Origin: a virus
DNA: 46,236 nucleotides
Virus record (IMG/VR): IMGVR_UViG_3300050821_011268
Span: 1-46,236 of that record
Strand: one strand, 5' to 3'
The notes beneath the pieces were generated by a model, which was given only the letters and a program-made list of their open reading frames with translations, ran no database searches and had not been told where the DNA came from. Position 1 is the stretch's first letter. Each line of letters starts with the position of its first letter. Positions 9,659 through 26,254 of this stretch are shown piece by piece. Position numbers and translations under genes: made by a program.

Positions 9659-9855
9659 TTTCGTCTCCTTCTCACTGCAAAAATCAAAGCGCTATTTTTA
9701 TACACTTCACTGCGTGGCACGAGAGCGGTTAAACCGAAATCTACATCAAGAATTTTAAGAGTTTGGTTTCTCGTAATGGGCGTTTCGATGGTGAGGACAA
9801 GTGGTTCTAGCCCCATCCGTTTAAGTATTCGATCCATCAATCTAAACCACAGCAT
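9655..9855 (-). CDS. Hypothetical protein
   Basis: 66-aa ORF with an ATGA overlap downstream. Confidence 0.45.
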   Translation of the reverse strand: MLWFRLMDRILKRMGLEPLVLTIETPITRNQTLKILDVDFGLTALVPRSEVYKNSALIFAVRRRRK

Positions 9856-10075
9856 GTGTGCTCCTCATAGATATCGGTTTACCTCTATCTTTTTGCATGC
9901 AGCCGCACGATTTGGTAGATTTATTTGCGATATTTTCTTCCCTCACTGTCGTCACTTGACCACACGTACATTCCGCGCGCCAGAATGACCGACCTTTGTT
10001 ATCCCTGCCGCCCCAATCAATGATGGTGAGTCTAAAATGCGTTTCCCCTACGCGATTTCTTCGCGGTTCCCCCAT
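9842..10075 (-). CDS. Small zinc-ribbon protein, CxC...CGC family (paralogue 1 of 3)
   Basis: FRLTIID...GRSFWRAECTCGQVTTV...KSTKSCGC aligns with ORFs 16720..16938 and 16938..17195. I chose the internal ATG at 10075 because the longer track ORF runs into the tRNA-like gene. Confidence 0.6.
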   Translation of the reverse strand: MGEPRRNRVGETHFRLTIIDWGGRDNKGRSFWRAECTCGQVTTVREENIANKSTKSCGCMQKDRGKPISMRSTHAVV

Positions 10076-10096
10076 AATATTTCCCCTTTTAAAAAG

Positions 10097-10198
10097 CGCC
10101 CAAGGAGGGACTCGAACCCCCAACTTCCGGTTTGACATCTCCGGCGCCCTAGGAAGCCGGACGAACTCCGATACTCTACCTTCTTGAGTTACTTGGGC
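10097..10198 (-). tRNA. tRNA-like gene, non-canonical (102 nt; anticodon not assignable)
   Basis: Minus strand: acceptor GCCCAAG/CTTGGGC, D arm ACTC-AAGAAGGTA-GAGT, T arm GGGGG-TTCGAGT-CCCTC. About 50 nt lie between the D and T arms with no 5-bp stem / 7-nt loop carrying U33. Confidence 0.45.
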
Positions 10199-10342
10199 AC
10201 ATAAAGAGACTCTCCGTATTGCTGATTCGAACAGCTTAAGACCTTCTACTATCCGGACGAATCCGAATATGATCTTTGCCTCTTATGGAGAGACTTTCAG
10301 CAGGCAACCAACCCCCACATCATACGAAGAGCCCCTCAAAAC

Positions 10343-10696
10343 TTATTTCAACAATTTCAAAACAGCCGGATAATCGCTCTCTTCCAAATCATTCGGACTT
10401 TTCACTTTGAATTTTTTCAAAATGGGAATGGCCTTGGATTTGTCGCCTTTGTGTTTCTTGATGAATTTCTTAAAGGCATCCATGACTACGGCCAAAGTGG
10501 GACCGTCTTCTTCAGTGTCTTCGAAAGAGTCCTCTTCTTCGGTGGTGGTCTCTTCTTCGCCAAAGGTCTCTTCTTCCTCTTCTGGCGCGGGCTTCGTAGT
10601 TTTTGCAGGCTTTCCTTTTGCGGGCTTACTGACATAGGCCACAAGTACAGAGGCTTGGTCCGGTGTCAAGTCCGTGAAGGTTAGATCTATTCCCAT
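10343..10696 (-). CDS. Hypothetical highly acidic protein
   Basis: 117-aa ORF. The central run is PEEEEETFGEEETTTEEEDSFEDTEEDG, and the C-terminus is Lys-rich and helical. Confidence 0.55.
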   Translation of the reverse strand: MGIDLTFTDLTPDQASVLVAYVSKPAKGKPAKTTKPAPEEEEETFGEEETTTEEEDSFEDTEEDGPTLAVVMDAFKKFIKKHKGDKSKAIPILKKFKVKSPNDLEESDYPAVLKLLK

Positions 10697-12348
10697 TATA
10701 AACTCCTTTTGTTTATTAGTGTATTGATGGACTGTAACTTTTTAAGATTCGTATTGATTACATAATCGTCAAGTGACTCGTCAAGCGCTAAATATTCGAT
10801 CAGCACTGGTTCTTTCGATGTCCTACGGTGAATACGATCTTGGGCCTGCGAATTATCTTTTGGCGACCAGCTCGTTTCAAGAAAAAGGGCACGCGTAGCC
10901 TTGTCTAAATTGTATCCGACCGCTGTCTGAATATTCATCACCAAAATCCTAGTGCCGCCGCGTTGGAAATTCTCTATCCGCGCTTCACGTTTATTTATGT
11001 TTACTTCCCCTGTCACCACGGCCGGGCAATACTTGTGGAGAACATAGGCCATATTTTCAATCACCCGTTTATGCCAAGCTAATATAAGGATGGACGCTTT
11101 CGTGGTGTCGAGGATCTCTTTCACATAGTTAGCGCAAAATTTTATTTTGGCTTCACCAAGGGTTTGCCGGAACTTCGCGATATCGCCCAGTTCTTGATTG
11201 GTCATGAGCCCATCTTGAAAGCGCTCGAAGAAATCAGACATCGGGCGCTTATTGAGAATCACTTTTTCAAGTGCTTTGATTCGGTAGCCGGTATTTTTGA
11301 TGTAAACCACTTGACTTGATTTATTGACGAAATCCGAACCCTTTTCTTCTCTCCGCATGAAAAGCCCATGCATGCGTTTTGATAGCTCTTCGAGATTTGA
11401 CGACCCCTTATAATCAAGACCAAAGCCATTGTCGTATGCCGCGCAATATCTGACGCCATATTCTTCCTTTGAGCGATGATTGATCACATTCGCGGCGGCT
11501 GATTTAAGAATGGGAAAAAGTTCAATCGGCCGGTTAGGCATTGGTGTGCCGCTCAAAAAAACCACTTTCTCGAATTGGTGAAGTAAGCCGTCCGGATTCA
11601 GTTTGGTGGTGTCGCCACAAAGGGCCTGTGTGCGCTGCGCTCCGCAGTTCACAAACCGCTGTGCCTCTTCAACAATAAGTAGCGGATGAGAAGACCCAAG
11701 GGAGCGGACAAAATCAGACACCAAACTAGAACCGATAAGAGTGTCAGGCACAAAGACAACATCGACTCGTTTAAGCGATTCTTTCTGCGCGAGTTTTCCA
11801 TCGACTGCTCCCCATGAGTTAGGTGATGTTTCCCATTTTTCAATTTCTCTTTGCCAATTTGGAATGAGATGCGGGGGAAGTAAGATGACCGTATTCTTCC
11901 CATAGGTGTTCATGATGGCAATAGCGGTCGGAGTTTTTCCCATACCTTGCTCAAAGGCTAAATAGGAATGATTGCGTTCCATCGCGTGAAGCACGCCTAG
12001 ACGCTGATATTTATCGAGCTGCTGATTTTTGGGAATAAGGATGCCGCTCACCCAAGGTGATAAAATTTCACACGATACGCGGCTAATAATTTTTAGGCAT
12101 TCTGTGTCGAAATATTCCTTGAGGTGGGCGGCCACTCTCAAGTGTGCCGTTTCATAGCGCTCAAGCAAGGGATTGTGCACGAAGCCAGCGCGTTTGATGC
12201 GGTCGGTGTCTGTGGCGAAATGGCCTTCGCACACAAATACCTTGGTTTTTTGATCGAACCAGATTTTCAAAAATTTTTCCCCTTGAGCCCTTTTGAATTC
12301 TTTACCTTGACAATATACACTCGCGCAATGAAAAATTCGAGTTCCCAA
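10696..12348 (-). CDS. SNF2-family (superfamily 2) helicase/ATPase
   Basis: GMGKT (motif I), LLIVEEAQRF (II), LSGTPMPN (III) and QAQDRIHRRTS (VI). TTG start without an obvious SD. Confidence 0.9.
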   Translation of the reverse strand: MGTRIFHCASVYCQGKEFKRAQGEKFLKIWFDQKTKVFVCEGHFATDTDRIKRAGFVHNPLLERYETAHLRVAAHLKEYFDTECLKIISRVSCEILSPWVSGILIPKNQQLDKYQRLGVLHAMERNHSYLAFEQGMGKTPTAIAIMNTYGKNTVILLPPHLIPNWQREIEKWETSPNSWGAVDGKLAQKESLKRVDVVFVPDTLIGSSLVSDFVRSLGSSHPLLIVEEAQRFVNCGAQRTQALCGDTTKLNPDGLLHQFEKVVFLSGTPMPNRPIELFPILKSAAANVINHRSKEEYGVRYCAAYDNGFGLDYKGSSNLEELSKRMHGLFMRREEKGSDFVNKSSQVVYIKNTGYRIKALEKVILNKRPMSDFFERFQDGLMTNQELGDIAKFRQTLGEAKIKFCANYVKEILDTTKASILILAWHKRVIENMAYVLHKYCPAVVTGEVNINKREARIENFQRGGTRILVMNIQTAVGYNLDKATRALFLETSWSPKDNSQAQDRIHRRTSKEPVLIEYLALDESLDDYVINTNLKKLQSINTLINKRSL

Positions 12349-12383
12349 TAAAAAAGGACAGCCATGACATTACGAGAATTTTT
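12307..12383. promoter_or_regulatory. Divergent control region: consensus -35 box plus a dyad centred on the 15-bp intergenic gap
   Basis: TTGACA at 12307-12312, then an 18-nt spacer and AAAAAT (TG immediately upstream). AAAAATTC (12331-38) and GAATTTTT (12376-83) form an inverted repeat whose centre (12357) is the gap between the two start codons. Confidence 0.3.
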
Positions 12384-12567
12384 GGAGATTAATAAACACG
12401 CATTCGTCGCCGAATCCCTTGGCGTCACTCACCAATGTGTGAGCCGATGGCATTGCTACAAAGGTTGCCCTCGCCCGGAACACATGAAAGCCCTTCTTGT
12501 TTTAAGTAGGGGCAAACTCACTTATGCAAGTATCATTGATCCCTTTTTAAAAAATCGGGGGAAATAG
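12364..12567 (+). CDS. Cro/YdaS-like HTH protein
   Basis: ESLGVTHQCVSRWHCYKGCPRPEHMKALLVLSRGKL resembles the YdaS/Cro pattern. It is the first gene of the rightward unit, with SD AAGGA. Confidence 0.6.
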   Translation: MTLREFLEINKHAFVAESLGVTHQCVSRWHCYKGCPRPEHMKALLVLSRGKLTYASIIDPFLKNRGK

Positions 12568-14811
12568 ATGGAAAACCAAATTTTGGCCGAAGGCAAACGC
12601 CTTTGCTCCTTGGGGTGGTGCGTTCATTTATTGAAACCAAAGAGCAAGGCGCCGGTCTATGGATGGAAAGGCACTGCTCCGGGCATGACCTGGGACGTCC
12701 TTGAGGAAAGATACCGGCCGGGCATGAATCTAGGGGTAAGGCTTGGAGCCGTGTCAAAGCTCAAAGGTGGGGGTCTTTTGGCCTGCATTGATGGTGATGC
12801 TAAAACGCCACAAGCCAAGGTGGAAATGCTGGCCTTTTGGAAACAGTGGAAGGCGGATAATTGGCTAGATGACGGGCCAGTGGTCACCACCGGCCGGGGC
12901 TTTGGGTCCTTCCATATGTATGTGAGGACGAAAGAGCCCTTGGCCATGACGACGCTTGGGAAAGGCGAAGGGTGGGAAGTTGTCGCATACTCCAGGGGTC
13001 GTCAAATGGTGCTTCCACCATCGGTCCATCCGAGCGGGTCTTTATATAGGTGGGAAAAGGGCACCGCCCACCAGGCGGTGTTACCACTGGCCTGGTGGGA
13101 CGATAAGGACGCTAGAAATCTGAACGTTGGGCTGGTCGAGGAAAATAAGACGCGGACTTTTTTGAAAGTGGACCTAGATTCCACAAGGCTTGTGGCTGAG
13201 TCAAAGAAATTGATTCGTGACGGGGCACAGCAGGGGGAAAGATCCGAAGCCCTATTTCGGTTGGCTCGAGAAATGCGCAATGTGGGCATGAAGCCCGATG
13301 AGATTGTGTCGGTGCTCACTGAGCCTAGATATGGGATTAGTGCGGCCGCAAGGGATAGGCGAGGCGATAGCCGCGTGGCCCAAGCCGATTGGGTGGATAA
13401 ATATGTGGTTGGCGCGGCTGAGAGTAAAGGGGGAGCTAGGGCGGCATTTCCTAATGACGACGAGATGTGGAAAGATTGGCGGCCACCGGGGGAGCATAAA
13501 CCCTTTTTGGGATTTAATTTTTTGGACCCCGAAAAAGGAAAGCTAAAGCCCGATTATGGCGGGCTACTCAAACACTTCGACGGAACCCATCCCTTTAAAA
13601 CCATAGCCGATATGAAAACGGTTTACGTGTTTAATGGTACCCATTATACAGACGTGACACCTATTGAGATCAAAGCCTTTGCCGAACACAATTTCATCCC
13701 CTCACCAGAAGACAAGATTCGGGGAGAATTTTTAAACAAGGTGCTCGCGAATAATGTAGTAAGGCGCTCTTTCTTTTTCGACACGACAGTCGATAAAATC
13801 AATTTTAAAAATGGTGTTATGGACTTAAAGGCCGGAGAAAATCGGCTTTTGCCGCATTCTTTCACCTATGGTTTCCGCGCGGTCCTTCCTTACGATTACG
13901 ACCCCGAAGCCAAATGCCCAATCTTTCGCAAATGGTTAGAGGGCGTAATGCTAAGAGATGAAACACTCATTCGGATACTTCAAGAATTCATGGGCTATGT
14001 GGTGCGCGGCGGGGACTACAAATACCACAAAGCTCTTTGGTTAAGTGGAAAAGGACGCAACGGGAAAAGCACTTTCATTGACTTGCTCAAAGCCTTGATC
14101 GGCCCAAACAATTTTACCACCGTCAGTATTAAAGCTTTGGTGGGGGACAAATTTGCGGGCGCAGAACTTGACGGTAAGATCGCAAATTTCTCGGAAGAAA
14201 CAAGCCCACAAGAATTAAAGGATTCAGGTCCTTTTAAGAATCTCACGGGCGACGGCGAACTCCACGTGCAGAAAAAATTCGGTGATCCGTACACTTTGAG
14301 AAATCGGGCTAAGCTAATCATGAGCTATAATGAAATTCCGGATCTTTCGGATCTCTCCCACGGAATGCTCTCTAGACCAATCATCATACCTTTTCTCAAA
14401 CAAATTGGTGAAGGGGAACAAGATCGAAGTATCAAGCAAAAACTTGCAAGCGAACTGTCGGGGATATTTAATTTCGCCCTTGAGGGCTGGCATCGGCTCG
14501 AAGAGCAAGGGGAGTTTACACAGAGTGAGAAATCAAAAGGAGCACTTAAGAAGATCAAAAAAGAATCTTGCAATGTCACTCAGTGGGCACTTGATTGCGT
14601 GAAGTTTTTACCCATTGATACGGTGTCAGCGTCCCGCGACCGCATTCGCATCACCAACCGAGTACTATATGCGAGCTATCGGTCACAAGAAAAATATGCG
14701 TATAGTCGGGATAAGTTTTTTAAACGTCTGAATCGTATTTCTGGGTTTAGTGAAAGGCGGGTAAAATTGAATGGAATTAGGGCTTATTATGATGTCGATT
14801 TATTGACGTAA
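12568..14811 (+). CDS. Bifunctional primase-polymerase fused to a P4/D5-type replicative helicase
   Basis: Prim-pol motifs IDGD and PPSVHPSGSLYRW. Walker A is GKGRNGKST within a P4-family C-terminal region. 747 aa. Confidence 0.9.
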   Translation: MENQILAEGKRLCSLGWCVHLLKPKSKAPVYGWKGTAPGMTWDVLEERYRPGMNLGVRLGAVSKLKGGGLLACIDGDAKTPQAKVEMLAFWKQWKADNWLDDGPVVTTGRGFGSFHMYVRTKEPLAMTTLGKGEGWEVVAYSRGRQMVLPPSVHPSGSLYRWEKGTAHQAVLPLAWWDDKDARNLNVGLVEENKTRTFLKVDLDSTRLVAESKKLIRDGAQQGERSEALFRLAREMRNVGMKPDEIVSVLTEPRYGISAAARDRRGDSRVAQADWVDKYVVGAAESKGGARAAFPNDDEMWKDWRPPGEHKPFLGFNFLDPEKGKLKPDYGGLLKHFDGTHPFKTIADMKTVYVFNGTHYTDVTPIEIKAFAEHNFIPSPEDKIRGEFLNKVLANNVVRRSFFFDTTVDKINFKNGVMDLKAGENRLLPHSFTYGFRAVLPYDYDPEAKCPIFRKWLEGVMLRDETLIRILQEFMGYVVRGGDYKYHKALWLSGKGRNGKSTFIDLLKALIGPNNFTTVSIKALVGDKFAGAELDGKIANFSEETSPQELKDSGPFKNLTGDGELHVQKKFGDPYTLRNRAKLIMSYNEIPDLSDLSHGMLSRPIIIPFLKQIGEGEQDRSIKQKLASELSGIFNFALEGWHRLEEQGEFTQSEKSKGALKKIKKESCNVTQWALDCVKFLPIDTVSASRDRIRITNRVLYASYRSQEKYAYSRDKFFKRLNRISGFSERRVKLNGIRAYYDVDLLT

Positions 14812-17554: not shown

Positions 17555-18076
17555 ATGGCTCTCACTCCCAAGCAACAACGGTTCATCGCTGAATACCTCA
17601 TCGACAAAAATGCAACACGAGCCGCCAAGGCTGCCGGATACTCTAAAAAGACTTCCGCTAAGATAGGTTTTGAAAACCTCCAAAAACCAGAAATTAAGAG
17701 CGAAATTGATAAAGGTTTGGCTAAACAATTAGCCGCTACTCGCGCTCGTGGAGAACGAAAAGAACTCACGAGAGAGCGTTGGCTTGAAGAAGTGAGGCTT
17801 CTCGCTTTTTCCAATATGGACAATTTCGCCACCGTAAAAAATGGTAGCGTATTTGCCACTAATACTAAGAATCGGCCTAAACCAATGGGCCGCATGATCA
17901 AAAAATTGAGTGAGACTAAAAACGGAATTGGTTTAGAACTCCATTCAAAGCAAGCGGCGCTCGAACTTTTAGGCAAGCATTATGGTTGGGTGAAAGACAA
18001 ATTGGAGCACTCTGGTGTTGATGGGAAGTCGTTAGATCTCACAGTGACCTATGTCTCCCCTCCAGAGAAAAAATGA
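17555..18076 (+). CDS. terS: Terminase small subunit (Terminase_2 / P27-like)
   Basis: LTPKQQRFIAEYLIDKNATRAAKAAGYSKKTSAKIGFENLQKPEI is the classic N-terminal HTH of this family. 4-nt overlap with terL. Confidence 0.85.
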   Translation: MALTPKQQRFIAEYLIDKNATRAAKAAGYSKKTSAKIGFENLQKPEIKSEIDKGLAKQLAATRARGERKELTRERWLEEVRLLAFSNMDNFATVKNGSVFATNTKNRPKPMGRMIKKLSETKNGIGLELHSKQAALELLGKHYGWVKDKLEHSGVDGKSLDLTVTYVSPPEKK

Positions 18077-19335
18077 TAGAACTCCCAACATACGCACACG
18101 CATTAAACCAACCAAGGCGATACAAAGTGCTAAGTGGGGGACGTGGATCGGCGAAGTCCTACACTGTTGCTAGAGCACTGCTACTTCGTGGGATTGAGCA
18201 AAAAAGATTTATCCTGTGCGGGCGCGAATTCCAAAATTCCATTACCGAATCAGTCCATAGACTCTTATCAGAACAGATTGGCACTATGGGCCTTTCACAG
18301 TTCTACGGTGTCACGGCTCAATCAATCCTTGGCAGAAATGGTACTGAGTTCATTTTTAAAGGAATGCGAAACAATATCAATTCAATCAAATCCATTCCAG
18401 GGATCACGGATCTGTGGCTTGAAGAGGCGCAAGTGATCTCCAAGGCTTCGTGGGACATTCTCATACCCACCATTCGCGAAGATGGTTCAGAAATTTGGGT
18501 GACGTATAATCCCGAGAACGAAGACGATCCGACACACGTGATGTTTTTTGATGGCAATAACGAACCACTCAAGCGAGACGATGCGATCATAATCAAAGTG
18601 AATTGGGATCAGAACCCATGGTTTCCAAAAGTGCTCGAAGCTGAGAAGAATCATCTCTATCAAGTGAACCCAGATTTGGCCGACCATGTTTGGGGCGGCA
18701 ACATTCGTAAAAATTCGTCGTCACAAATCTTTCGGCACAAATGGGAAGTGCGGGAATTCGAGCCAGCCTTCACCAAAGGCGAGCTTCAAGAAGGCTGGTT
18801 CGGTCCATACCACGGTCTTGACTTTGGTTTCTCAACCGATCCGCTTGCAGTCGTTCAAATCTATTTAGACATGAACACCAGGGAGCTATTGTTTAGACGA
18901 GCCAAGTTTGGCTACGGGATTGAGATTGATTACATCGGCGATTTCATGCGGAACAATATTCCCAATATTCAGAATTTTAAAATTCGGGCTGATTGTTCCA
19001 GGCCTGAGACAATAAGCCACATCGCCAATAAGGGATGGAACATTGAAGGTGCTGAGAAGTGGCCGGGCTCAGTTGAAGACGGGATCGAATGGCTCCGCAC
19101 TTGGAATAAAATCGTGATTCATCCAGATTGTGAACACAGCGTCACGCGCGAGGGCATCACGACCACCTATGGAATGATCACTGAAGCCAAAAACTATTCA
19201 TACAAAGTGGACAGGCTCACGCAAGACGTATTGACTGACGTGGTCGATGCGTTCAACCATGGGTGGGATGCCGCACGCTATGCGTGCCAACCGATGATCA
19301 CTCAACAATCGAGCATCCTAGATTCGTACTCGTAA
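18073..19335 (+). CDS. terL: Terminase large subunit (PBSX / Terminase_3-like)
   Basis: P-loop LSGGRGSAKS, Walker B-like DLWLEEA and a C-terminal nuclease-like region. Position is terS-terL-portal. Confidence 0.9.
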   Translation: MIELPTYAHALNQPRRYKVLSGGRGSAKSYTVARALLLRGIEQKRFILCGREFQNSITESVHRLLSEQIGTMGLSQFYGVTAQSILGRNGTEFIFKGMRNNINSIKSIPGITDLWLEEAQVISKASWDILIPTIREDGSEIWVTYNPENEDDPTHVMFFDGNNEPLKRDDAIIIKVNWDQNPWFPKVLEAEKNHLYQVNPDLADHVWGGNIRKNSSSQIFRHKWEVREFEPAFTKGELQEGWFGPYHGLDFGFSTDPLAVVQIYLDMNTRELLFRRAKFGYGIEIDYIGDFMRNNIPNIQNFKIRADCSRPETISHIANKGWNIEGAEKWPGSVEDGIEWLRTWNKIVIHPDCEHSVTREGITTTYGMITEAKNYSYKVDRLTQDVLTDVVDAFNHGWDAARYACQPMITQQSSILDSYS

Positions 19336-19342
19336 GGGAGAT

Positions 19343-21568
19343 TTGAAAATGGCTAAGACAAGAAAGACAACCATTAAGACGCCGAAATTGCCTTCAGTCA
19401 CCGAGAGCATGCCGGGCTTTCAATTCAAGAACGATGGTGCGGTCGTCACACCACAAATCGAAACCGCTGTTTGGAATGGGCTCATGGAAGCGGTCTTGGG
19501 TCCGATGCCTTCGGGCATTCCCTTCGCGGGCCACAGTCAACCACTCAATCAAACGAATACGCTTTGGATAAATAATCGTTGGTATCTAGCATCCAACTTT
19601 CGACAACTCCTTTCAGAATCCTATGTCGAGCATGGCGTGATCCAAACCGTTGTCGATGTGCCGGTAGACGATGCTTTCCGTGGCGGAATCGAAGTGCATT
19701 CAAAAGAACTAGATCCGCGTGACATCGAACTTCTGTGCGGAGAGATGGAGGAGAAAGGTGATCTTATCGTTATTGGGCAGACCTGCAAATGGAATCGCCT
19801 ATTCGGTGGAGCTGGAACTGTTCTTAACGTGGACCAAGATCCAATGGAGCCGCTCAATCTCGATACGATCACACGATTTGAGATGTACGCGGCTGACATG
19901 TGGGAGCTATTCTGGAATAAACAGAATACAGAAGAGTATTCGATTGCCATTGATCTCGCTGCAAATATGGAGCGAATCGAATATTTTCAATTCTATGGTC
20001 ATAAGCTCCACAAATCTAAAGTCCTCAAGCAGAAAGGGATTGAGATTCCGTCGCTCATTCGCCCGAGGGTTCGTGGATGGGGAGTTAGCGTTGTCGAAGT
20101 ACTCATTAATTCCATCAACCAATATCTCAAAGCCAACAATTTAATCTTTGAAGTGCTCGATGAATTTAAAGTCGATTATTACAAGATCAAAGGCTTAGCG
20201 AATGCAGTCCTCACACCGGCAGGTACGGCCAACATTCGTAAGCATCTATCTGTCATGAACCAGCAAAAGAATTACAACAATGCGGCCGTGATGGATTCCG
20301 AAGACGATTGGATGCAACGTCAGCTTTCTTTCGCGGGGATTGCCGAAACCATGCAAGGTATCCGCATGCACATGGCTTGTGATGTTCGCATGCCGCTCTC
20401 TAAGATCTTTGGAATTTCTGCCACGGGCTTTGGCTCGGGCCAAGACGATATCGAGAATTACAATGCGATGGTCGAGAGCCAAGTCCGTCAGAAGGCTAAA
20501 TTTGAAATACTGAAAGTGGTCAAGATCCGTTGCCAACTTCTCTTCGGTCATGTGCCGGATGATTTACGTGTGGGCTTCAAATCACTTCGCATCCTTGGTG
20601 CCGAACAAGAAGAGAATGTGAAGACCCAGAAATTTAATCGCGTACTTCAAGCGCGAACGGCTGGTGAAGTGACAGCGCTTGAATTCAGAAACGCTATAAA
20701 CCGGGACATGCTACTTCCCATTCAGCTTGAGACAGATGAAGCAGCACTTTCAGCCGCAGCGGACGAGAAAGAATTGGCCGCATCGGAGAACGCCAAGATC
20801 TCCGGCAAAAGCGGGATCTCTCAAGATGCGATGTCGTCTACCACACCAAAGGTGGCCAAGAACTCAGCCGACGACGATCCGTATCCGAATTTTGTCGGTC
20901 CTAAAATCGTAACTGTGGGCATCGTATGCGGCGATGAAATGTTGGCTTGTCTTCGCCGCGACAATAACAAATGGAATAATCCAGGCGGCCATATGGACCA
21001 TGGTGAATCCGTGAGAGCTGCGGCTGTAAGAGAAGTGTTTGAAGAGACGGGCATTGGGATAGTACCGCACCGTTTGGAGCGATTGAAACCCATTCAGCTC
21101 AAAAGTCATCGCGGCGGAAAAGATTTTTGCATCTACCCATTCATTGCCCGCATAAAAACCAAAATATTCCCTACCACTTTCAATGATCCCGATTGCGAAT
21201 TCTCCCGGTTTGCTTGGGTAAAAATTGACCCGGCCACTGAAGAGCTTAAAGCGGACAATCGCCATGCGGCCAAAGACCAAGTGGTGGAGCATTTATTGAA
21301 GTCGCTTAAGAATTCATATGTTTCGGATAAGGGTTACGACAAGGACAATAATCAAATTGATCAAGATGCATTCTTCGCGCGCATCCGAGAAGAGGGGACC
21401 GGCGCTCAAGATCCCAAAGACCAAAGCAAGAATGCTGTTCAGAATCCGGGGAAGGTGGATGAAGCCAAATGGGAGCGGGCCAAGAAAAAGGTCAAAGAAG
21501 AATACGGCGAGATCAGATGGCCGGTCGTCACCTATGTCTATAAGAAAATGGGCGGAACATTTCAATGA
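19343..21568 (+). CDS. Portal protein (DUF1073-like) fused to a C-terminal Nudix hydrolase domain
   Basis: 741-aa ORF directly after terL. The N-terminal ~470 aa are portal-like. The Nudix box GGHMDHGESVRAAAVREVFEETGI lies at nt 20984-21055. Confidence 0.85.
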   Translation: MKMAKTRKTTIKTPKLPSVTESMPGFQFKNDGAVVTPQIETAVWNGLMEAVLGPMPSGIPFAGHSQPLNQTNTLWINNRWYLASNFRQLLSESYVEHGVIQTVVDVPVDDAFRGGIEVHSKELDPRDIELLCGEMEEKGDLIVIGQTCKWNRLFGGAGTVLNVDQDPMEPLNLDTITRFEMYAADMWELFWNKQNTEEYSIAIDLAANMERIEYFQFYGHKLHKSKVLKQKGIEIPSLIRPRVRGWGVSVVEVLINSINQYLKANNLIFEVLDEFKVDYYKIKGLANAVLTPAGTANIRKHLSVMNQQKNYNNAAVMDSEDDWMQRQLSFAGIAETMQGIRMHMACDVRMPLSKIFGISATGFGSGQDDIENYNAMVESQVRQKAKFEILKVVKIRCQLLFGHVPDDLRVGFKSLRILGAEQEENVKTQKFNRVLQARTAGEVTALEFRNAINRDMLLPIQLETDEAALSAAADEKELAASENAKISGKSGISQDAMSSTTPKVAKNSADDDPYPNFVGPKIVTVGIVCGDEMLACLRRDNNKWNNPGGHMDHGESVRAAAVREVFEETGIGIVPHRLERLKPIQLKSHRGGKDFCIYPFIARIKTKIFPTTFNDPDCEFSRFAWVKIDPATEELKADNRHAAKDQVVEHLLKSLKNSYVSDKGYDKDNNQIDQDAFFARIREEGTGAQDPKDQSKNAVQNPGKVDEAKWERAKKKVKEEYGEIRWPVVTYVYKKMGGTFQ

Positions 21569-21786
21569 AGCTCCAATTCTTGAATCCCAAATGGTACGAG
21601 AACAATTCAAGACTCGCCATGGACTGCCCGAGATGTGGGAACAAACATAAACTAATCTTAAGGTTCACGGGCACGCCTGCATTCACACTCATTCACAAAG
21701 ATCCACTCACCATCTCGCCATCGTTTAAAAGTGACGTTTGTGGAGTGCATTTTAAAATTCACGCTGACCAAATAACAGCAGTTTAA
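21565..21786 (+). CDS. Small zinc-ribbon protein, DUF6527-like
   Basis: CPRCGNKHKLIL ... LTISPSFKSDVCGVHFKI resembles the CxxC ... PSI ... C-x-H pattern I associate with DUF6527. ATGA overlap with the portal stop. Confidence 0.4.
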   Translation: MKLQFLNPKWYENNSRLAMDCPRCGNKHKLILRFTGTPAFTLIHKDPLTISPSFKSDVCGVHFKIHADQITAV

Positions 21787-22167: not shown

Positions 22168-22321
22168 TCACATCGCCCGAGGCGGAAAGGTGAAATTCGT
22201 TGCAGACGAAGGAACTTCGAGCAGTCAAAGAAACGACGGAAGACCTAGACCGAGTGCAACGCTTGATAGAGAAAGCGTTTCGGGAACAGATATATGTTCC
22301 ACTACTTGCGGAACTCCGTGA
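21947..22321 (+). CDS. SEC-C-motif ORF overlapping both neighbours (status uncertain)
   Basis: PRNSHCPCGSQKKFKKCCLP is a textbook SEC-C metal-binding motif. An in-frame GTG at 21962 lies 6 nt after GGAGG. The 3' 122 nt overlap the MuF-like gene. Confidence 0.4.
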   Translation: MRRMPVQTKREKNKEQNKLKKNLERRALAPVAGHNFNPILNSPRNSHCPCGSQKKFKKCCLPNAPLVIKKELVDHIARGGKVKFVADEGTSSSQRNDGRPRPSATLDRESVSGTDICSTTCGTP

Positions 22322-23156
22322 ATCCGAAGCCATTTACAACTCCACTGACGAAATCGCAAAAGCTCTCATGCGCGGCCGGATCTCTTACCGCCTAGGAAAG
22401 TTCACCGGCCGATTCAATGCCACGATCTCTAAGGAACTCAAGAAAATTGGTGCTGTGTGGGACAAAAAGCAGCAAGCCTTTGTACTTCCGAAAGCCAAAG
22501 TGCCGCCACAAATCCGGTCTGCAATTGCTGCCGGACATACCAGATTCACTGACGCGGTTCAGAAAATCCAGGAACGAATATCGAAAATTTTGCCGGAAAA
22601 TGTTGCCGAAGCGTTTCAAGGAACCGACGTCTTCGATGAACTCCTCGGAAAACTGGACCGCAACATTTCAAAGACCTTAGAGGGCATCACCATTCAACCA
22701 AAATTGTCGGACAAAGAGCGCCGAAAAATCGCTGACGGATACACCGACAACATGAGGCTTTACATCAAAGACTGGACCGAGGAAGAAATCGTTAAGCTCC
22801 GGAAATCAGTGGAGAAGAAAACATTTCTCGGCCAACGCTATGAGGACCTGGCCAAGACCATCGAGCGCAGATATCAAGTCTCAAAAAGCAAAGCAAAATT
22901 TCTCGCGCGCCAAGAAACAAATTTGTTCATCTCCGAGTTCAAAGAGACCCGTTACAAGTCGGCAGGAAGTACCGAATACACTTGGTGTTGTGTGGTGGGT
23001 TCACAGAAGCATCCGGTCCGACCCATGCACAAAAAATTAAACGGGACTAGACAAAGTTGGGATCGTCCTCCAGTAGTTAATGAAGAAGGCCAAAGAAAAA
23101 ATCCGGGGCAAGATTATGGCTGCCGGTGCTTTGCGAGACCGATCATTAAATTCTGA
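22200..23156 (+). CDS. Head morphogenesis / minor capsid protein (Mu F / SPP1 gp7 family)
   Basis: FLARQETN ... YTWCCV ... VRPMHKKLNG ... PGQDYGCRC matches the Phage_Mu_F C-terminal pattern. TTG start lies 7 nt after AAGGTG. This frame opens only at 22194. Confidence 0.8.
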   Translation: MQTKELRAVKETTEDLDRVQRLIEKAFREQIYVPLLAELRESEAIYNSTDEIAKALMRGRISYRLGKFTGRFNATISKELKKIGAVWDKKQQAFVLPKAKVPPQIRSAIAAGHTRFTDAVQKIQERISKILPENVAEAFQGTDVFDELLGKLDRNISKTLEGITIQPKLSDKERRKIADGYTDNMRLYIKDWTEEEIVKLRKSVEKKTFLGQRYEDLAKTIERRYQVSKSKAKFLARQETNLFISEFKETRYKSAGSTEYTWCCVVGSQKHPVRPMHKKLNGTRQSWDRPPVVNEEGQRKNPGQDYGCRCFARPIIKF

Positions 23157-23162
23157 GGGCTG

Positions 23163-24347
23163 TTGGTGTCCATAAAAAATGCTTCACAACCTGCACGAGT
23201 GTTTTACGGGCTTCACTTTGAGCCCGGCACTGCCGAATACAATGATTCGGATAAAGGTCCTTACAAAATCCTGATCAACGAAGACACGATTCGTCAAATG
23301 AACAAAACATTTGCGGGAAAACCCGTTTACGTCGAACACGTCGACACTGTTGATTTGAAAAAATTTGAGAATGAAGCGGCGGGGCTTGTCGTCGAAAGTT
23401 TTTTCAATTCCATCGACGGAAAAACGTGGGTGAAGTTTGTCGTGTTCTCCGATGCAGGACTGGACGCCATAAAAAAAGGTTGGACTCTTTCAAATGCGTA
23501 TGTACCAATAGCATTCGGTACTGGTGGAACATGGCACGGAATGAAATACGAACGTGAGATCACAAACGCGACGTTCGAGCATCTTGCACTTGTTCCCAAC
23601 CCGCGCTATGAGTCCTCGATCATTTTAGATCCCGAAGGTTTCAAGGCGTACAACGAAAAAAAAGAAATGGAATTGCTAAAAATAGCAAATTCAAAAGGAG
23701 ACGGAAAAATGAAGTTCAATATTTTCAAGCGCGAAAAGGTCACCAACTCTGCGGACCTTGAAAACATGATGGTCACTTTGCCTTTGACTAAAAAAGACAT
23801 CTCCTTGATTGAGGCCATTGAATCGGCCGACAAGTTCCACAATATGCACGGCTATGCCAGTGATGAGCACATGGTAAAATGCGACGATGAAGAGTTCAGC
23901 GTCAAAGACATGCGTAAGAATTGGTCAAAAATGAAAGCTGAAAACGCTGAAATGGGCGACAAAATCAAAGCGCTTGAAGAACACGGAGTTCATGAGAACG
24001 ACGATGATGACGACAAAAATTGCAATGAAGACGAAGAAGAGCATGAGCGTGAAGAAGAAAAGGCGGGCAAAGACAAGGAAAAAGAGAAGGACAAAGACGC
24101 CGCCAAAAAGAACAAAAAGAAAAACGAGCCCAGCGAAGAAGAGATGAAAAAGAAAAAGAACGCAGATGAAGCTGCGGCCAAAGCAAAGAAAAATGCCGAT
24201 GACCTAGCGGCCAAAAAAGATGCTGAAGGCGAAGCTCATTTCAAGAAATTGCAAAACGCGGTCCTGGAAGCAGGCGATCAAGGCACTCGCGAAGTGGTGT
24301 TGAATTCGGATCGTGTGGCCAAAGGAAAGAGCTTGTTCGGTTCTTAA
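23163..24347 (+). CDS. DUF2213-type prohead protease/scaffolding protein with a Lys/Glu/Asp-rich C-terminal half
   Basis: VFYGLHFEPGTAEYND ... KPVYVEHVD ... FEHLALVPNPRYE (DUF2213-like). Typical position before the capsid gene. The start is TTG 23163 or GTG 23166. Confidence 0.7.
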   Translation: MVSIKNASQPARVFYGLHFEPGTAEYNDSDKGPYKILINEDTIRQMNKTFAGKPVYVEHVDTVDLKKFENEAAGLVVESFFNSIDGKTWVKFVVFSDAGLDAIKKGWTLSNAYVPIAFGTGGTWHGMKYEREITNATFEHLALVPNPRYESSIILDPEGFKAYNEKKEMELLKIANSKGDGKMKFNIFKREKVTNSADLENMMVTLPLTKKDISLIEAIESADKFHNMHGYASDEHMVKCDDEEFSVKDMRKNWSKMKAENAEMGDKIKALEEHGVHENDDDDDKNCNEDEEEHEREEEKAGKDKEKEKDKDAAKKNKKKNEPSEEEMKKKKNADEAAAKAKKNADDLAAKKDAEGEAHFKKLQNAVLEAGDQGTREVVLNSDRVAKGKSLFGS

Positions 24348-24398: not shown

Positions 24399-25169
24399 AT
24401 GGCAGTAACAGCAGGTGCATTAAGTAAGGTAAGCGTTCAGGCGACTTCTGACGTCTTGTCGAGCGCTGTCGCAACTGGCGGCACTGGCCCTTATACATAT
24501 CAATGGTATCAAAGCACGGTTTCCGGTTTCGCTCCTGGTCCTAGTAATTTAGTTGCGGGCGCGACTTCGGTTGCACCAAGCAACCAAATGTTCACTGGTC
24601 TTCAACCGGGCACGACTTATTACTACATTGTCGTAGCGACCGACACCGGTGCTGGAAACGCGACTTCCAATTCCGCACAACTTGCAGTGGTTACGGCACC
24701 CGCGCAATCGCCTAACCAAGTAACCCAGTCACCTGTCGCGGGCATGCCCGATCAGAAGTACAGCTATAATACCAAAGCCGCATTGATTGACGTTTCCGAA
24801 GTGAATCAAAGCATCGCGGGCAGTGCCGTTAAGATCGTGAGCACTTCCAAAGGTGTCATGAAAGTGGTCAAGTGTACCGCTGATACCGATCAAGTGTTGG
24901 GCTTCATCGTGTACGATGTGAAATCGCAATTCTTCACCATCGGAGACCGCTGTGAGATTGCCCAAGGGGGCGATGTTCTTTATCTCATCTCGGTGGGTGC
25001 GATCAGCGCGGGTCAGCAAGTGCAACTCGATCTCACCTATGAAGGTGGTGTGAAAGCAATCAGTGGCGGGTCGGGTGCGAATTTGGTTGGATGGGCTATG
25101 GATTCGGCATCCGGCGATGGTCAATTGATCCGAATCAATATCGCAGCACCGCAGTATTCGTTTGCCTAA
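24399..25169 (+). CDS. Head decoration protein: N-terminal Ig/FN3-like domain plus DUF2190-like C-terminal domain
   Basis: GGTGPYTYQWYQS ... TTYYYIVVATD (Ig/FN3-like). The C-terminal half has LGFIVYDV ... GDRCEIAQGGDV ... ISAGQQV. Strong SD AAGGAG. Confidence 0.6.
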   Translation: MAVTAGALSKVSVQATSDVLSSAVATGGTGPYTYQWYQSTVSGFAPGPSNLVAGATSVAPSNQMFTGLQPGTTYYYIVVATDTGAGNATSNSAQLAVVTAPAQSPNQVTQSPVAGMPDQKYSYNTKAALIDVSEVNQSIAGSAVKIVSTSKGVMKVVKCTADTDQVLGFIVYDVKSQFFTIGDRCEIAQGGDVLYLISVGAISAGQQVQLDLTYEGGVKAISGGSGANLVGWAMDSASGDGQLIRINIAAPQYSFA

Positions 25170-25201
25170 TCTGTGACTTTTTAAATAAAAGGAGTTTACC
25201 C

Positions 25202-26254
25202 GTGGAATATGAAGTACGAAATGCAAAAGGTGAGCTGATAAAGCTCACTCCTCGTGAGGCCCTAATCGCGAACTACTGGCAGCGTCACATCAAGAACGCT
25301 CTCGGTTATGATATTCAAATCACCACTTTGACGACCATTGTGAAAAAGGTCTCAGAGCAAAAGTTTTACGAAATCCCACCCGCTGACTACATGCCAATCG
25401 TTGTCGGAAATGGTGCCTGGTCTGATCAACTGACCACTTATCGTTCGTACAATATGGCGGACAGTTTCGAGACAGGTATCATCAACACGGGCACCAACAA
25501 CGCTCGTATGGCGAATGCTGATGCTGGTGTTGATTCGCTGACCATCAAAGTGTTCAACTGGGCGAAAGCCGTTGGTTGGAGCATCTTTGATTTGGAATTG
25601 GCCGCGAAGTCTGGAAATTGGGATCTGATCGCCGCCAAAGAAGAGTCCAGGAAGAAAAACTGGGATCTCGGAATTCAGCGGATCGCATTCCTCGGTGCTT
25701 CGGGCGTCAACAGCTCCTCGGGTTCATGCCTTGGTCTCTTGAATCAACCGACCGTTACCCGCGATACTCTTACAATCACGCAAGCAATCAGTTCGTATAC
25801 ATTCACGCAATTGAATGCATTCGTGCAAAAAGTGGTTGAAGCGTACCGTGCGAACGCACAGCGTACGGTCTACCCGACCCATTTCATTATCCCAGAATCG
25901 GATTACAACGGATTGAATGTCTTTTCGAATCCGGAATTTCCTCTCAAAACTTCCATGGAAGTGCTTGAGACCATGTTCAAGACCGCTTGCAAAAACCCGA
26001 ATTTCAAAATCTTGCCGAACATTTATGGTCAGGTTTCGTATGCGGGTGCGGGCATCTTGCCGAGCCAATTCGCGACGCAAATGTATGTGCTCTTGAACTA
26101 CGACGAGAAGTCGGTTCGGATGGACGTGCCGGTTCCGTATACCAACACCTTGGCCAACACTCTGGATGGCTTTAATTTCCAGAACGCGGCTTACGGTCAG
26201 TTCACTGGTGTACTCGCCTATCGTCCGCTCGAAATGTACTACATGGGCTTTTAG
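25202..26254 (+). CDS. Major capsid protein (DUF2184-type, HK97-fold inferred)
   Basis: GTG 25202 lies 7 nt after AAGGAG. 350 aa. Its position after scaffold and decoration genes is typical of DUF2184 pairing with DUF2213. The track start 25091 overlaps the decoration gene. Confidence 0.8.
   Translation: MEYEVRNAKGELIKLTPREALIANYWQRHIKNALGYDIQITTLTTIVKKVSEQKFYEIPPADYMPIVVGNGAWSDQLTTYRSYNMADSFETGIINTGTNNARMANADAGVDSLTIKVFNWAKAVGWSIFDLELAAKSGNWDLIAAKEESRKKNWDLGIQRIAFLGASGVNSSSGSCLGLLNQPTVTRDTLTITQAISSYTFTQLNAFVQKVVEAYRANAQRTVYPTHFIIPESDYNGLNVFSNPEFPLKTSMEVLETMFKTACKNPNFKILPNIYGQVSYAGAGILPSQFATQMYVLLNYDEKSVRMDVPVPYTNTLANTLDGFNFQNAAYGQFTGVLAYRPLEMYYMGF

What the first reader, a model, noticed from the sequence alone, without database searches (positions are those of the whole stretch)
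19343..21568. Portal protein fused to a C-terminal Nudix hydrolase with an intact catalytic box
A single uninterrupted 741-codon ORF follows terL. The first ~470 residues look like a DUF1073-type portal. After a Ser/Ala/Asp-rich linker, GGHMDHGESVRAAAVREVFEETGI (nt 20984-21055) fits the Nudix box GX5EX7REUXEEXGU at every defined position. A Lys/Glu-rich tail of ~100 residues follows. Portals are dodecamers at the DNA-exit vertex, so this architecture would put up to twelve pyrophosphohydrolase domains in the particle, next to the first DNA that enters the cell. Free-standing phage Nudix enzymes exist (for example T4 NudE), but I do not recall a portal-Nudix fusion. Possible roles, all inference, are destruction of nucleotide-derived host immune signals or NAD/ADP-ribose derivatives at entry, RNA decapping, or nucleotide-pool sanitation.
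Basis: partly seen in the sequence, partly recalled or inferred. Interest (0 to 1): 0.8.

Follow-up and report, generated by a model that had tools for sequence, protein, structure and literature searches.

The report
Phage portal carrying Nudix enzyme cargo
This phage's portal protein, the ring through which DNA enters and leaves the capsid, really does carry an intact-looking Nudix hydrolase on a flexible C-terminal tether, but such fusions are common among its relatives and were already described computationally in 2022.

Summary
ORF 19343-21568 is uninterrupted and encodes a PF06381 portal (E 2e-49), a disordered linker, a PF00293 Nudix domain (E 2e-15, complete Nudix box, confident Nudix fold) and a conserved 40-aa helical-hairpin tail.

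It is not an assembly artefact: 51 of the 120 closest portals from independent samples carry the same Nudix domain with invariant catalytic residues.

It is not new as an architecture. Iyer et al. 2022 (PMC9503650) describe Nudix fused to Portal, MuF and prohead peptidase. Faecalibacterium phage FP_Brigit's portal and phrog_15528 also have it.

Three details were not found in the two surveys I read.
- The portal C-terminus in this lineage is a cargo slot, and the cargo is dispensable and patchy among relatives.
- Modules are joined at a protein-level conserved K-N-S/A junction. Unextended portals end exactly there.
- The tail module is undescribed and also occurs as a free-standing gene.

The best reading is a capsid-internal enzyme cargo, probably released by processing and ejected with the DNA. 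The substrate cannot be assigned. This is a new member of a known kind, of moderate interest.

The parts
19343..21568 (+). Whole portal-Nudix-tail ORF: 741 codons from TTG 19343, with a likely true start at ATG 19349 (739 aa). The stop is at 21566-21568.
   Evidence: identical to JGI protein P0001.
19616..20791 (+). Portal core. The PF06381 match covers residues 92-431, and the conserved helices continue to about residue 483, the last portal helix.
   Evidence: Pfam E 2.3e-49. phrog_146 E 2.7e-65. AF2 pLDDT is mostly above 85. Foldseek top hits are the Pam3, E217, Pa193, T1 and FCWL1 portals, E 4e-13 to 1e-10.
20792..20902 (+). Disordered Ser/Ala/Asp-rich tether of about 35 aa between the portal and the Nudix domain.
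   Evidence: pLDDT below 50 for residues 481-507 of the 739-aa model. The sequence varies among relatives except at the junction motif.
20858..20866 (+). Junction motif 1, K506-N507-S508 (context PKVAKNS). This is a candidate processing site or module boundary.
   Evidence: N507 is invariant in 51 of 51 sequences. Unextended portals end '...PEAK[S/T/V]*' at this position. Of 97 extended portals, 61 have [KR]N[SA] here, against 8.9 expected from shuffling.
20903..21313 (+). Nudix hydrolase domain, residues about 521-657. It is a compact single-domain type.
   Evidence: PF00293 E 2e-15 to 8e-17. AF2 pLDDT 90-98. Foldseek against PDB gives E. coli YmfB/NudJ (E 2.4e-10, TM 0.74), RppH, Ap4A hydrolases and MutT.
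20987..21055 (+). Nudix box GHMDHGESVRAAAVREVFEETGI (G549...I571).
   Evidence: Every defined position is met. G549, E555, R563, E564, E567, E568 and G570 are invariant across 51 homologues.
21185..21277 (+). Clade-specific signature downstream of the box: D615-P-D617-x-E619 ... W625 ... R640-H641 ... D645.
   Evidence: D615, D617, E619, W625 and D645 are invariant; P616, R640 and H641 are at least 90% conserved.
21308..21316 (+). Junction motif 2, K656-N657-S658 (context SLKNSY), directly after the Nudix domain.
   Evidence: Relatives have the same 'KNS-LEYDV' junction after Nudix, matching 'AKNS-LDYDV' in portals that lack Nudix.
21317..21427 (+). Low-confidence acidic spacer of about 37 aa. 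It looks like a degenerate counterpart of the 'DYDxAAYExDGGD' unit of relatives.
   Evidence: pLDDT 47-65; alignment.
21428..21436 (+). Junction motif 3, K696-N697-A698 (context QSKNAVQ), directly before the tail module.
21437..21565 (+). Conserved C-terminal tail module (VQNPGKVDEAKWERAKKKVKEEYGEIRWPVVTYVYKKMGGTFQ). It is a basic helical hairpin with predicted pI 9.6.
   Evidence: The module is present in 61 of 120 related portals, with or without Nudix. AF2 gives two helices at pLDDT about 90. Free-standing 44-82 aa versions are encoded next to portal genes. It has no Pfam or PHROG family.
18073..19335 (+). Context: terminase large subunit, immediately upstream.
   Evidence: Terminase_3 E 5e-42 and Terminase_3C.
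21565..21786 (+). Context: small DUF6527 ORF of 73 aa whose ATG overlaps the portal stop (ATGA).
   Evidence: PF20137 E 5.6e-7; junction sequence.
22200..23156 (+). Context: MuF-type minor head protein.
   Evidence: PF04233 E 3.6e-13 and phrog_324.
23163..24347 (+). Context: DUF2213 (Pa193_gp24-type) scaffold/protease protein carrying recurrent KN[SA] and ANS motifs.
   Evidence: PF09979 E 1e-7. PHROGs annotated 'head maturation protease'. The motifs are conserved in four genomes.

Best explanation
Shown. The gene encodes a genuine portal protein whose C-terminus carries a cargo cassette. After the last portal helix come, in order: a disordered tether of about 35 aa, a compact Nudix pyrophosphohydrolase with all catalytic residues, a short spacer, and a 42-aa basic helical hairpin. 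In this phage lineage (relatives of Bdellovibrio phage phi1422) the portal C-terminus is a variable slot. It can be empty, carry only the hairpin, or carry Nudix or other modules. The modules are joined at a K-N-S/A junction that is conserved at the protein level.

Inferred. Portal C-termini point into the capsid, so twelve Nudix domains are built into the procapsid interior around the portal crown. The junction motifs are most simply read as head-maturation processing sites. Cutting at them would free a Nudix protein of about 17 kDa and the hairpin of about 5 kDa inside the head. The freed Nudix would leave through the portal-tail channel with the DNA, as known head-packaged phage proteins do. 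Early in infection it would hydrolyse a low-abundance NDP-X molecule. My best guesses are an ADP-ribose-derived or dinucleoside-polyphosphate signal, or RNA 5' ends. Bulk metabolite pools are unlikely targets. The substrate is not determined.
For: Domains and fold.

Purifying selection on catalysis: the Nudix box and a DPDxE signature are invariant in 51 of 51 homologues at about 45% identity.

A real fusion: 51 of the 120 nearest portals, from independent samples and on 40-48 kb contigs with the same synteny.

Internal location: the domain follows the last portal helix, and the C-terminal barrel of related portals is inside the capsid (PMC11456595).

Independent targeting to the head interior. 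The same Nudix clade (69 representatives at E<1e-30) is also fused to two other portal families, Portal_Mu and the P23-45 type. It is also fused to two prohead-protease families, Peptidase_S78_2 (10 members) and Mu-like_Pro.

Junction motif.
- N507 is invariant.
- KN[SA] occurs at 3.3 per 1000 aa in the extensions, against 0.6 in cores and 0.7 expected from composition.
- 61 of 97 extended portals have it at a median of 29 aa after the core, against 8.9 in shuffles.
- Unextended portals stop exactly there.
- Codons at the sites vary, so selection acts on the protein.
- The motif recurs at domain boundaries of the DUF2213 scaffold/protease protein in four genomes.

Prior proposal: the same packaged-and-injected reading was made for this architecture class in PMC9503650 and PMC5512222.
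Against: There is no experimental evidence that the domain is in virions, cleaved or ejected. No cleavage specificity is known for this lineage: the Pa193 paper calls the DUF2213 protein a putative scaffold 'possibly cleaved'.

The K-N-S motif could be a structural or recognition element rather than a cleavage site. The motif I first saw at the capsid-protein N-terminus is not conserved.

The cargo is dispensable. The two closest portal cores (63-64% identity) have no extension, and one of those genomes has no Nudix in the slot.

Twelve copies per virion is little enzyme.

The subfamily, and hence the substrate, is unassigned. No NCBIfam equivalog passes its cutoff, and T4 NudE scores only 25 bits against the clade profile.
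Confidence: 0.5

Rival explanations
1. The Nudix domain is a late-expressed enzyme that works in the producing cell, either on unassembled portal subunits or in procapsids before DNA fills them. For example, it could remove a nucleotide-derived alarm or abortive-infection signal late in infection. Fusion to the portal would merely give co-expression. The domain then stays tethered in the capsid as a passenger and is never delivered.
For: In related genomes the cargo sits as separate genes in the same slot, for example a methyltransferase and a 161-aa protein. This shows the slot can simply be a place for accessory late genes. No cleavage or ejection has been shown. The cargo is dispensable.
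Against: The same Nudix clade is repeatedly fused to proteins that share only one property, residence inside the procapsid. These are three portal families and two prohead proteases. Co-expression alone would not need physical fusion. Portal is a low-copy protein and so a poor vehicle for a cytoplasmic enzyme. The conserved flanking junction motifs are unexplained by this reading.
Confidence: 0.25
2. A variant of the best explanation that differs in substrate. The ejected enzyme is an RppH-like RNA 5'-end pyrophosphohydrolase or decapping enzyme. It would convert 5'-triphosphate or Np4/NAD-capped host transcripts to 5'-monophosphate and so speed up host mRNA decay.
For: RppH structures are among the best structural matches (E 7e-9). 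RNA pyrophosphohydrolase NCBIfam models are among the top weak hits. Some clade members hit the Nudt16-like decapping model.
Against: The best structural match is YmfB/NudJ, which acts on small molecules. All RppH equivalog scores are far below their cutoffs, at 27 bits against 116. The matches are largely confined to the Nudix box.
Confidence: 0.15
3. The domain has a structural or regulatory role at the portal, such as binding nucleotides or DNA ends to help genome retention or headful sensing, rather than acting on host molecules.
For: It sits at the crown, next to the last-packaged DNA end. The adjoining tail module is a basic hairpin (pI 9.6) that could bind DNA or coat protein.
Against: All metal-binding and catalytic residues are invariant, which a purely structural role does not require. 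Closely related phages do without the domain. The same clade occurs free-standing and on prohead proteases.
Confidence: 0.07
4. The fusion is an assembly or sequencing artefact, with a missed stop or frameshift joining a portal gene and a separate Nudix gene.
For: Split arrangements of portal, cargo and tail do exist in relatives.
Against: 51 distinct protein clusters from JGI, ENA, NCBI and Logan assemblies have the same in-frame fusion, as does cultured phage FP_Brigit. The linker is conserved in frame, including an invariant Asn. GC content is uniform across the parts at 0.47-0.48.
Confidence: 0.01

Closest known systems
Portal-Nudix (and MuF-Nudix, prohead-peptidase-Nudix) fusions catalogued by Iyer, Burroughs, Anantharaman and Aravind 2022 (PMC9503650, section 3.5.2), within the polyvalent or head-packaged effector theme of Iyer et al. 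2017 (PMC5512222)
   Same: The architecture class and the functional prediction (packaged into the head and injected) are the same. My profile search independently recovers the same partners: Phage_portal_3, Portal_Mu, Peptidase_S78_2 and Mu-like_Pro.
   Different: That survey assigns such domains to a 'T4 NudE-like' clade, but here T4 NudE scores only 25 bits against the clade profile. The survey reports Nudix in only 0.25% of small phages, while in this 46-kb lineage 51 of the 120 nearest portals have it. I did not find the junction motif, the tail module or the split/fused polymorphism described in the two papers I read.
Faecalibacterium phage FP_Brigit portal protein YP_009797051.1 (828 aa), probably related to phrog_15528
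   Same: It has PF06381 followed by PF00293 in one polypeptide in a cultured phage. Further sequence follows the Nudix domain.
   Different: It is only 23.5% identical. Its Nudix matches the clade profile only over the box region, at 37 bits, and lacks the DPDxE...WxWV signature, so this is probably an independent fusion. It has an HPRDxxGxF-type motif and a different C-terminal region instead of the NPGKVDE hairpin.
Bdellovibrio phage phi1422 portal gp45 (YP_007007124.1), the closest deposited phage
   Same: The portal core is 51% identical. The gene order is the same: terS, terL, portal, HTH_8, MuF, DUF2213, capsid.
   Different: It is 478 aa and ends '...AKEANS*' at the junction position, with no Nudix and no tail.
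T4 NudE (NP_049737.1)
   Same: It is a small single-domain phage Nudix, encoded next to the genes for virion internal proteins and lysozyme. It is annotated as active on FAD, ApnA, ADP-ribose and NADH.
   Different: It is free-standing and not a specific sequence relative (25 bits). It is not known to me to be virion-packaged.
E. coli YmfB/NudJ (PDB 3dku, 4nfx), encoded on the e14 prophage
   Same: It is the nearest solved structure (E 2.4e-10, TM 0.74, 24% identity) and the best PDB sequence hit (E 7.5e-6). It shares the 'W-N-x-P-[GA]-G-H' lead-in to the box.
   Different: It is a cellular or prophage stand-alone enzyme, and it lacks this clade's signature downstream of the box.
T4 Alt and internal proteins, and MuF-fused toxins: head-packaged, processed and ejected proteins, as summarised in PMC5512222
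   Same: The logic is the same: an enzyme is carried inside the capsid and delivered with the DNA. In T4 the prohead protease releases it.
   Different: The targeting route differs. Here the enzyme is covalently fused to the portal C-terminus, rather than carrying an N-terminal capsid-targeting sequence or a MuF fusion. Processing has not been shown here.

Membership tests
Nudix hydrolase superfamily (PF00293) | Nudix box G-x5-E-x7-R-E-U-x-E-E-x-G-U | tested here: met
   GHMDHGESVRAAAVREVFEETGI meets all defined positions. Pfam gives 57-62 bits against a cutoff of 21.1.
Nudix hydrolase superfamily (PF00293) | Alpha/beta/alpha Nudix fold | tested here: met
   AF2 pLDDT 90-98. Foldseek gives 565 PDB matches at E<=0.001, and all 50 listed are Nudix enzymes, with TM up to 0.79.
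Nudix hydrolase superfamily (PF00293) | Mg/Mn-dependent hydrolysis of an NDP-X diphosphate bond | not testable with these tools
   This needs an enzyme assay. Invariance of the catalytic residues in 51 of 51 homologues is indirect support.
Phage_portal_3 (PF06381, DUF1073) portal proteins | Profile match above the curated threshold | tested here: met
   168.5 bits against a cutoff of 33.8; phrog_146 E 2.7e-65.
Phage_portal_3 (PF06381, DUF1073) portal proteins | Portal fold and position next to the large terminase in a head module | tested here: met
   Foldseek hits the Pam3, E217, Pa193, T1 and FCWL1 portals. The gene follows terL directly and precedes MuF, scaffold and capsid genes.
Phage_portal_3 (PF06381, DUF1073) portal proteins | Dodecameric ring at one capsid vertex | not testable with these tools
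   Inferred from homology to solved dodecamers only.
T4 NudE-like phage Nudix clade (as named in PMC9503650) | A specific sequence relationship to T4 NudE beyond generic Nudix similarity | tested here: inconclusive
   T4 NudE scores 25 bits against the clade HMM, covering profile positions 17-89 of 136. That is below what reached E 0.001 in the library-wide search. tblastn did pick up a 'nudix hydrolase' in the 178-kb Cronobacter phage Dev_CS701 at E 5e-6.
Specific bacterial Nudix equivalogs (RppH, MutT, NudB, NudC, NudE, NadM-Nudix) | NCBIfam equivalog score above the curated cutoff | tested here: not met
   The best hits are 28.6 bits against a cutoff of 103 (NudB-type) and 26.9 against 116 (RppH). 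All others are also far below cutoff.
ADP-ribose pyrophosphatase subfamily | Conserved Pro about 15-16 residues after the box.
   Positions +15 and +16 after I571 are L and K in the window protein, and the clade consensus has no conserved Pro there. This is a weak test because the criterion is from memory.
Head-packaged, injected phage effector (polyvalent, MuF or portal cargo class) | Covalent or genetic linkage to a protein of the capsid interior | tested here: met
   The domain is fused after the last portal helix. The clade is also fused to Portal_Mu, a P23-45-type portal, Peptidase_S78_2 and Mu-like_Pro.
Head-packaged, injected phage effector (polyvalent, MuF or portal cargo class) | Proteolytic release inside the head | tested here: inconclusive
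   Conserved K-N-S/A junctions flank the cassette and recur in the scaffold/protease protein. No cleavage data exist.
Head-packaged, injected phage effector (polyvalent, MuF or portal cargo class) | Presence in virions and transfer to the host cell | not testable with these tools
   This requires virion proteomics and infection experiments.

The most novel reading that the evidence does not exclude
In the phi1422-like phage lineage the portal C-terminus works as a polyprotein-style cargo launcher. Interchangeable modules are strung after a fixed '...PEAK' portal end. These modules include Nudix, a zeta-toxin-like kinase, unknown domains and the NPGKVDE hairpin, and in split form also a DNA methyltransferase. 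Each is flanked by a K-N|S/A site that a head-maturation activity cuts, either the DUF2213 protein or Asn-dependent self-cleavage. Twelve copies of each cargo would thus be freed inside the capsid and ejected first. The Nudix cargo would destroy a diphosphate-containing host immune signal, such as a Thoeris-type cyclic ADP-ribose isomer, before the signal can trigger abortive infection.
Probability: 0.25. Interest if true: 0.7.

Novelty: new member of a known kind. Interest (0 to 1): 0.4.

Why it matters
Enzymes delivered inside the virion act before any phage gene is expressed, so they are the phage's earliest counter-measure against host immunity.

Portal-fused Nudix domains have been predicted to be such effectors, but I found no experimental study of one in the paper library.

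This lineage offers a compact and tractable test case. The genome is 46 kb and has a cultured relative, phi1422. Natural variants exist with and without the cargo. A sharply defined junction motif gives precise predictions for mass spectrometry. The Nudix domain is about 17 kDa and easy to express.

If the junction is a processing site, it would also define a simple rule for loading foreign proteins into phage heads.

Tried and rejected
- Capsid-protein N-terminus as a second example of the K/R-N-S/A site. It looked promising in the window and phi1422 but is not conserved in L003 (IRYQNGE), so I dropped it.
- 'T4 NudE-like' membership. Only 25 bits against the clade profile, so it is not specifically supported.
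- Substrate assignment from sequence or structure. NCBIfam equivalogs are all sub-threshold. PDB sequence hits and Foldseek hits spread over NudJ, RppH, Ap4A hydrolases, MutT and NUDX1 without discrimination.
- Word-index homologue search with the Nudix domain alone. It returned one hit and was uninformative. I replaced it with the exhaustive profile search.
- Identity of the tail module. No Pfam hit even at E<=10 and no PHROG hit. The same holds for the linker.
- DNA-level explanation of the junction (recombination scar or slippery A-run allowing frameshift fusion). Rejected because codons at the sites vary and there is no shared nucleotide motif.
- Solved structure for the DUF2213 protein by sequence search. 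None found.
- Names for NCBI-derived portal-Nudix relatives. None recorded.
- Assembly artefact. Rejected.
Full report
**1. Observation**

The ORF at 19343-21568 (+) is real and uninterrupted, with 741 codons from a TTG start. The ATG two codons downstream (19349) gives exactly the 739-aa protein called by JGI on a 46,236-bp contig, which is this window (P0001).

The ORF directly follows terL (Terminase_3 plus Terminase_3C).

- Residues 92-431 match PF06381 Phage_portal_3 (formerly DUF1073) at E 2.3e-49, and phrog_146 'portal protein' at E 2.7e-65.
- Residues 528-640 match PF00293 NUDIX at E 2e-15, or 8e-17 when the C-terminal part is scanned alone.
- The quoted string lies at nt 20984-21055. 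It satisfies every defined Nudix-box position: G549, E555, R563, E564, E567, E568 and G570.

**2. A real fusion under selection**

Of the 120 best homologues in a 5.8-billion-protein collection, 51 carry the Nudix box. They come from JGI, ENA, NCBI and Logan assemblies, many on 40-48 kb contigs.

Aligned, the box residues are invariant in 51 of 51 while the intervening positions vary. So is a clade-specific downstream signature: D615-P-D617-x-E619, W625 and D645 are invariant, and R640-H641 are at least 90% conserved. Overall identity is only 43-53%, so this is purifying selection on catalysis.

A fused relative (P0002) sits in the same syntenic head module. GC content is uniform across portal, Nudix and tail. 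A missed stop or indel is therefore excluded.

**3. Structure**

AlphaFold2 with a 51-sequence alignment gives a confident Nudix domain, with pLDDT 90-98 over fragment residues 11-150.

Foldseek against the PDB finds only Nudix enzymes. The best is E. coli YmfB/NudJ (E 2.4e-10, TM 0.74), followed by RppH, Ap4A hydrolases, MutT and NUDX1. Against predicted viral structures, the top hits are Nudix proteins of uncultured tailed phages, several of them multi-domain at 305-713 aa.

The full-length model has these parts:
- a confident portal core, residues about 85-481;
- a disordered stretch, 481-507;
- the Nudix domain, 510-650;
- a low-confidence spacer;
- a confident two-helix hairpin, 700-735.

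The portal part matches the solved portals of Pam3, E217, Pa193, T1, FCWL1 and XM1. In these portals the C-terminal barrel or crown lies inside the capsid (PMC11456595; this is also established portal architecture). The Nudix domains must therefore sit inside the procapsid and capsid, tethered around the crown.

**4. Subfamily and substrate**

No NCBIfam equivalog comes near its cutoff. The best is 28.6 bits against 103, and RppH models reach 26.9 against 116. PDB sequence hits are weak and mostly confined to the box.

T4 NudE, fetched from NC_000866, scores only 25 bits against the clade profile. I could not confirm the 'T4 NudE-like' label used in the literature.

The substrate is undetermined. 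By chemistry it must contain a diphosphate linkage. That rules out ordinary 3'-5' cyclic oligonucleotides and allows ADP-ribose derivatives, NAD(H), FAD, ApnA, (p)ppGpp, damaged (d)NTPs and RNA 5' ends. This argument rests on established Nudix chemistry and was not tested here.

**5. Relatives and modularity**

The nearest deposited phage is Bdellovibrio phage phi1422, with a 51% identical portal core. It has the same gene order, but its 478-aa portal lacks any extension.

The 120 nearest portals fall into these classes:

| C-terminal arrangement | Number |
|---|---|
| Nudix + tail (like the window) | 16 |
| Nudix only | 35 |
| Linker or other modules + tail, no Nudix | 45 |
| No extension | 19 |
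| Other | 5 |

On a rough UPGMA tree of portal cores, Nudix and tail presence are both very patchy, at about 20 parsimony changes each. The window's two closest cores (63-64% identity) have no extension. One of those genomes has no Nudix in the slot at all. The cargo is thus accessory and frequently gained, lost or exchanged.

In other relatives the same slot holds separate genes:
- portal, then an N6/N4 DNA methyltransferase, then a free 79-aa tail protein (L003);
- portal, then a 161-aa unknown protein, then a free 75-aa tail protein (L004).

One portal (P0081) carries tail plus a zeta-toxin/AAA_33-type kinase.

**6. The junction motif**

The Asn of 'PKVAK-N-S' (N507) is invariant in 51 of 51 sequences, although it lies in an otherwise variable, disordered linker.

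- KN[SA] occurs at 3.3 per 1000 aa in portal extensions, against 0.6 in cores and 0.7 expected from composition.
- Of 97 extension-bearing portals, 61 have [KR]N[SA] at a median of 29 aa after the core. Residue shuffles give 8.9 on average, with a maximum of 18 in 200 shuffles.
- Unextended portals almost all end '...PEAK(S/T/V)*', exactly at this position. phi1422 ends '...AKEANS*'.
- After the Nudix domain the motif recurs as 'KNS-LEYDV...'. This is the same junction seen directly after the portal in Nudix-less relatives ('AKNS-LDYDVAAYEVDGGD'). The Nudix therefore looks like a cassette flanked by the motif on both sides.
- The window protein has three sites, at K506, K656 and K696. They delimit fragments of 56.6, 16.9, 4.6 and 5.2 kDa.
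- Several free-standing tail proteins begin MKNSY or MKNNY.
- Codons at the sites vary freely, so selection acts on the protein and not on a DNA recombination sequence or slippery run.
- The neighbouring DUF2213 protein is annotated as 'head maturation protease' in PHROGs and as a putative scaffold in Pa193. It has a conserved (K/A)-N-S-K right after its N-terminal domain and one to three KN[SA] in its C-terminal part, in all four genomes examined.

I read the motif as a candidate head-maturation processing site. This is inference, because no cleavage specificity is known for the lineage.

**7. The Nudix clade elsewhere**

An exhaustive profile search of 1.84 billion representatives gave 69 hits at E<1e-30 and 1,914 at E<1e-10.

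Among the top 105 hits, Pfam finds fusions to the following:

| Fusion partner | Members |
|---|---|
| DUF5661 | 13 |
| Peptidase_S78_2 (XkdF prohead protease) | 10 |
| Phage_portal_3 | 8 |
| Methyltransferases | 6 or more |
| Portal_Mu | 2 |
| Mu-like_Pro | 1 |
| P23-45-type portal | 1 |

What the portal and protease partners have in common is residence in the procapsid interior. This is independent, convergent support for head packaging.

FP_Brigit's portal-Nudix matches the clade profile only over the box and lacks the downstream signature. This suggests an independent fusion.

**8. Literature**

Iyer et al. [quoted passage not shown]

Iyer et al. 2017 (PMC5512222) describe analogous portal fusions of PBECR, 2H and InPase domains.

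I found no experimental study of a portal-Nudix protein.

**9. Mechanism**

Shown:
- a portal with a tethered, catalytically intact Nudix and a conserved hairpin;
- modular and dispensable cargo;
- a conserved junction motif.

Inferred:
- twelve copies are built into the procapsid interior;
- processing at the K-N|S/A junctions frees the Nudix and the hairpin;
- the Nudix is ejected with the DNA and hydrolyses a low-abundance NDP-X molecule early in infection.

With about 12 molecules per virion, a signalling molecule or RNA ends are more plausible targets than bulk NAD or nucleotide pools. This is a copy-number argument and is itself inference.

The rivals are a late cytoplasmic role with no delivery, a structural role, and an artefact. 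The last is rejected.

**10. Verdict**

The architecture is already known computationally, so this is a new member of a known kind. Three details add value: the cargo-slot polymorphism, the junction motif and the undescribed tail module. Together they make the packaged-effector hypothesis sharply testable. Interest 0.4.

Noticed in passing
window 21437-21565; also P0121-P0134, L003 6001-6240, L004 6001-6228: There is an undescribed module of about 40 aa, a basic helical hairpin with consensus NPGKVDExLWxKAKxASxKAFGKxKWxFVTWxYKKxGGxF. It has no Pfam or PHROG family. It ends 61 of 120 related portals with or without Nudix, is duplicated in some (P0059, P0093), is internal in P0081, and occurs as free-standing 44-82 aa genes between the portal and MuF genes. 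Its function is unknown. It could bind coat protein or DNA, in the way scaffold helix-turn-helix domains do.
   Followed up: partly
window 20858-20866, 21308-21316, 21428-21436; scaffold gene 23163-24347: A protein-level conserved K-N-S/A junction motif marks the module boundaries in portal extensions and recurs in the DUF2213 scaffold/protease protein. Unextended portals stop exactly at this position ('...PEAKS*').
   Followed up: yes
window 21565-21786: A 73-aa DUF6527 ORF (PF20137, E 5.6e-7, with CxxC pairs) starts at an ATG that overlaps the portal stop codon (ATGA). phi1422 has no ORF at this position, and there is no PHROG match.
   Followed up: partly
window 1-97 and 46140-46236: There is an exact 97-bp terminal overlap, so the contig is probably a complete genome of about 46.1 kb, either circularly assembled or terminally redundant. 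GC content is 47.2% and there are no tRNAs.
   Followed up: partly
related proteins P0057, P0060, P0067, P0081, P0088, P0115; L002 (FP_Brigit portal C-terminus): A short motif, (K/S)HPRDxxGxF followed by a Gly-rich stretch, recurs in portal C-terminal extensions of otherwise unrelated sequence. It also appears after the Nudix domain of FP_Brigit. It could be another linker or processing element. It is not present in the window protein.
   Followed up: no
P0081 (863 aa); L003 4788-6014: The same slot holds other cargo. One example is a zeta-toxin/AAA_33-type kinase fused after portal plus tail. Another is a separate N6/N4 DNA methyltransferase gene between the portal gene and a free tail-module gene. 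DUF5661 lies between portal and tail in P0120 and is fused to 13 of 105 Nudix-clade proteins.
   Followed up: partly
window 25091-26254: The mechanical ORF for the major capsid protein (387 aa) probably starts about 35-40 codons too early. Homologues in phi1422, L003 and L004 begin just before the 'VRNAKGE' region.
   Followed up: partly
window 3200-14811: The window has its own replication module: family A DNA polymerase, Enc34-type SSB, DUF2800/PD-(D/E)XK nuclease, SNF2 helicase and Prim-Pol/D5-type primase-helicase. No integrase or other NAD/ADP-ribose-related gene appeared among the ORFs scanned, which suggests a virulent lifestyle like that of phi1422.
   Followed up: partly
window 19343 vs 19349: The longest ORF starts at TTG 19343, but the ATG at 19349 is the start used in the public gene call and is more likely correct. 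Residue numbers in this report use the 741-codon frame unless stated otherwise.
   Followed up: yes
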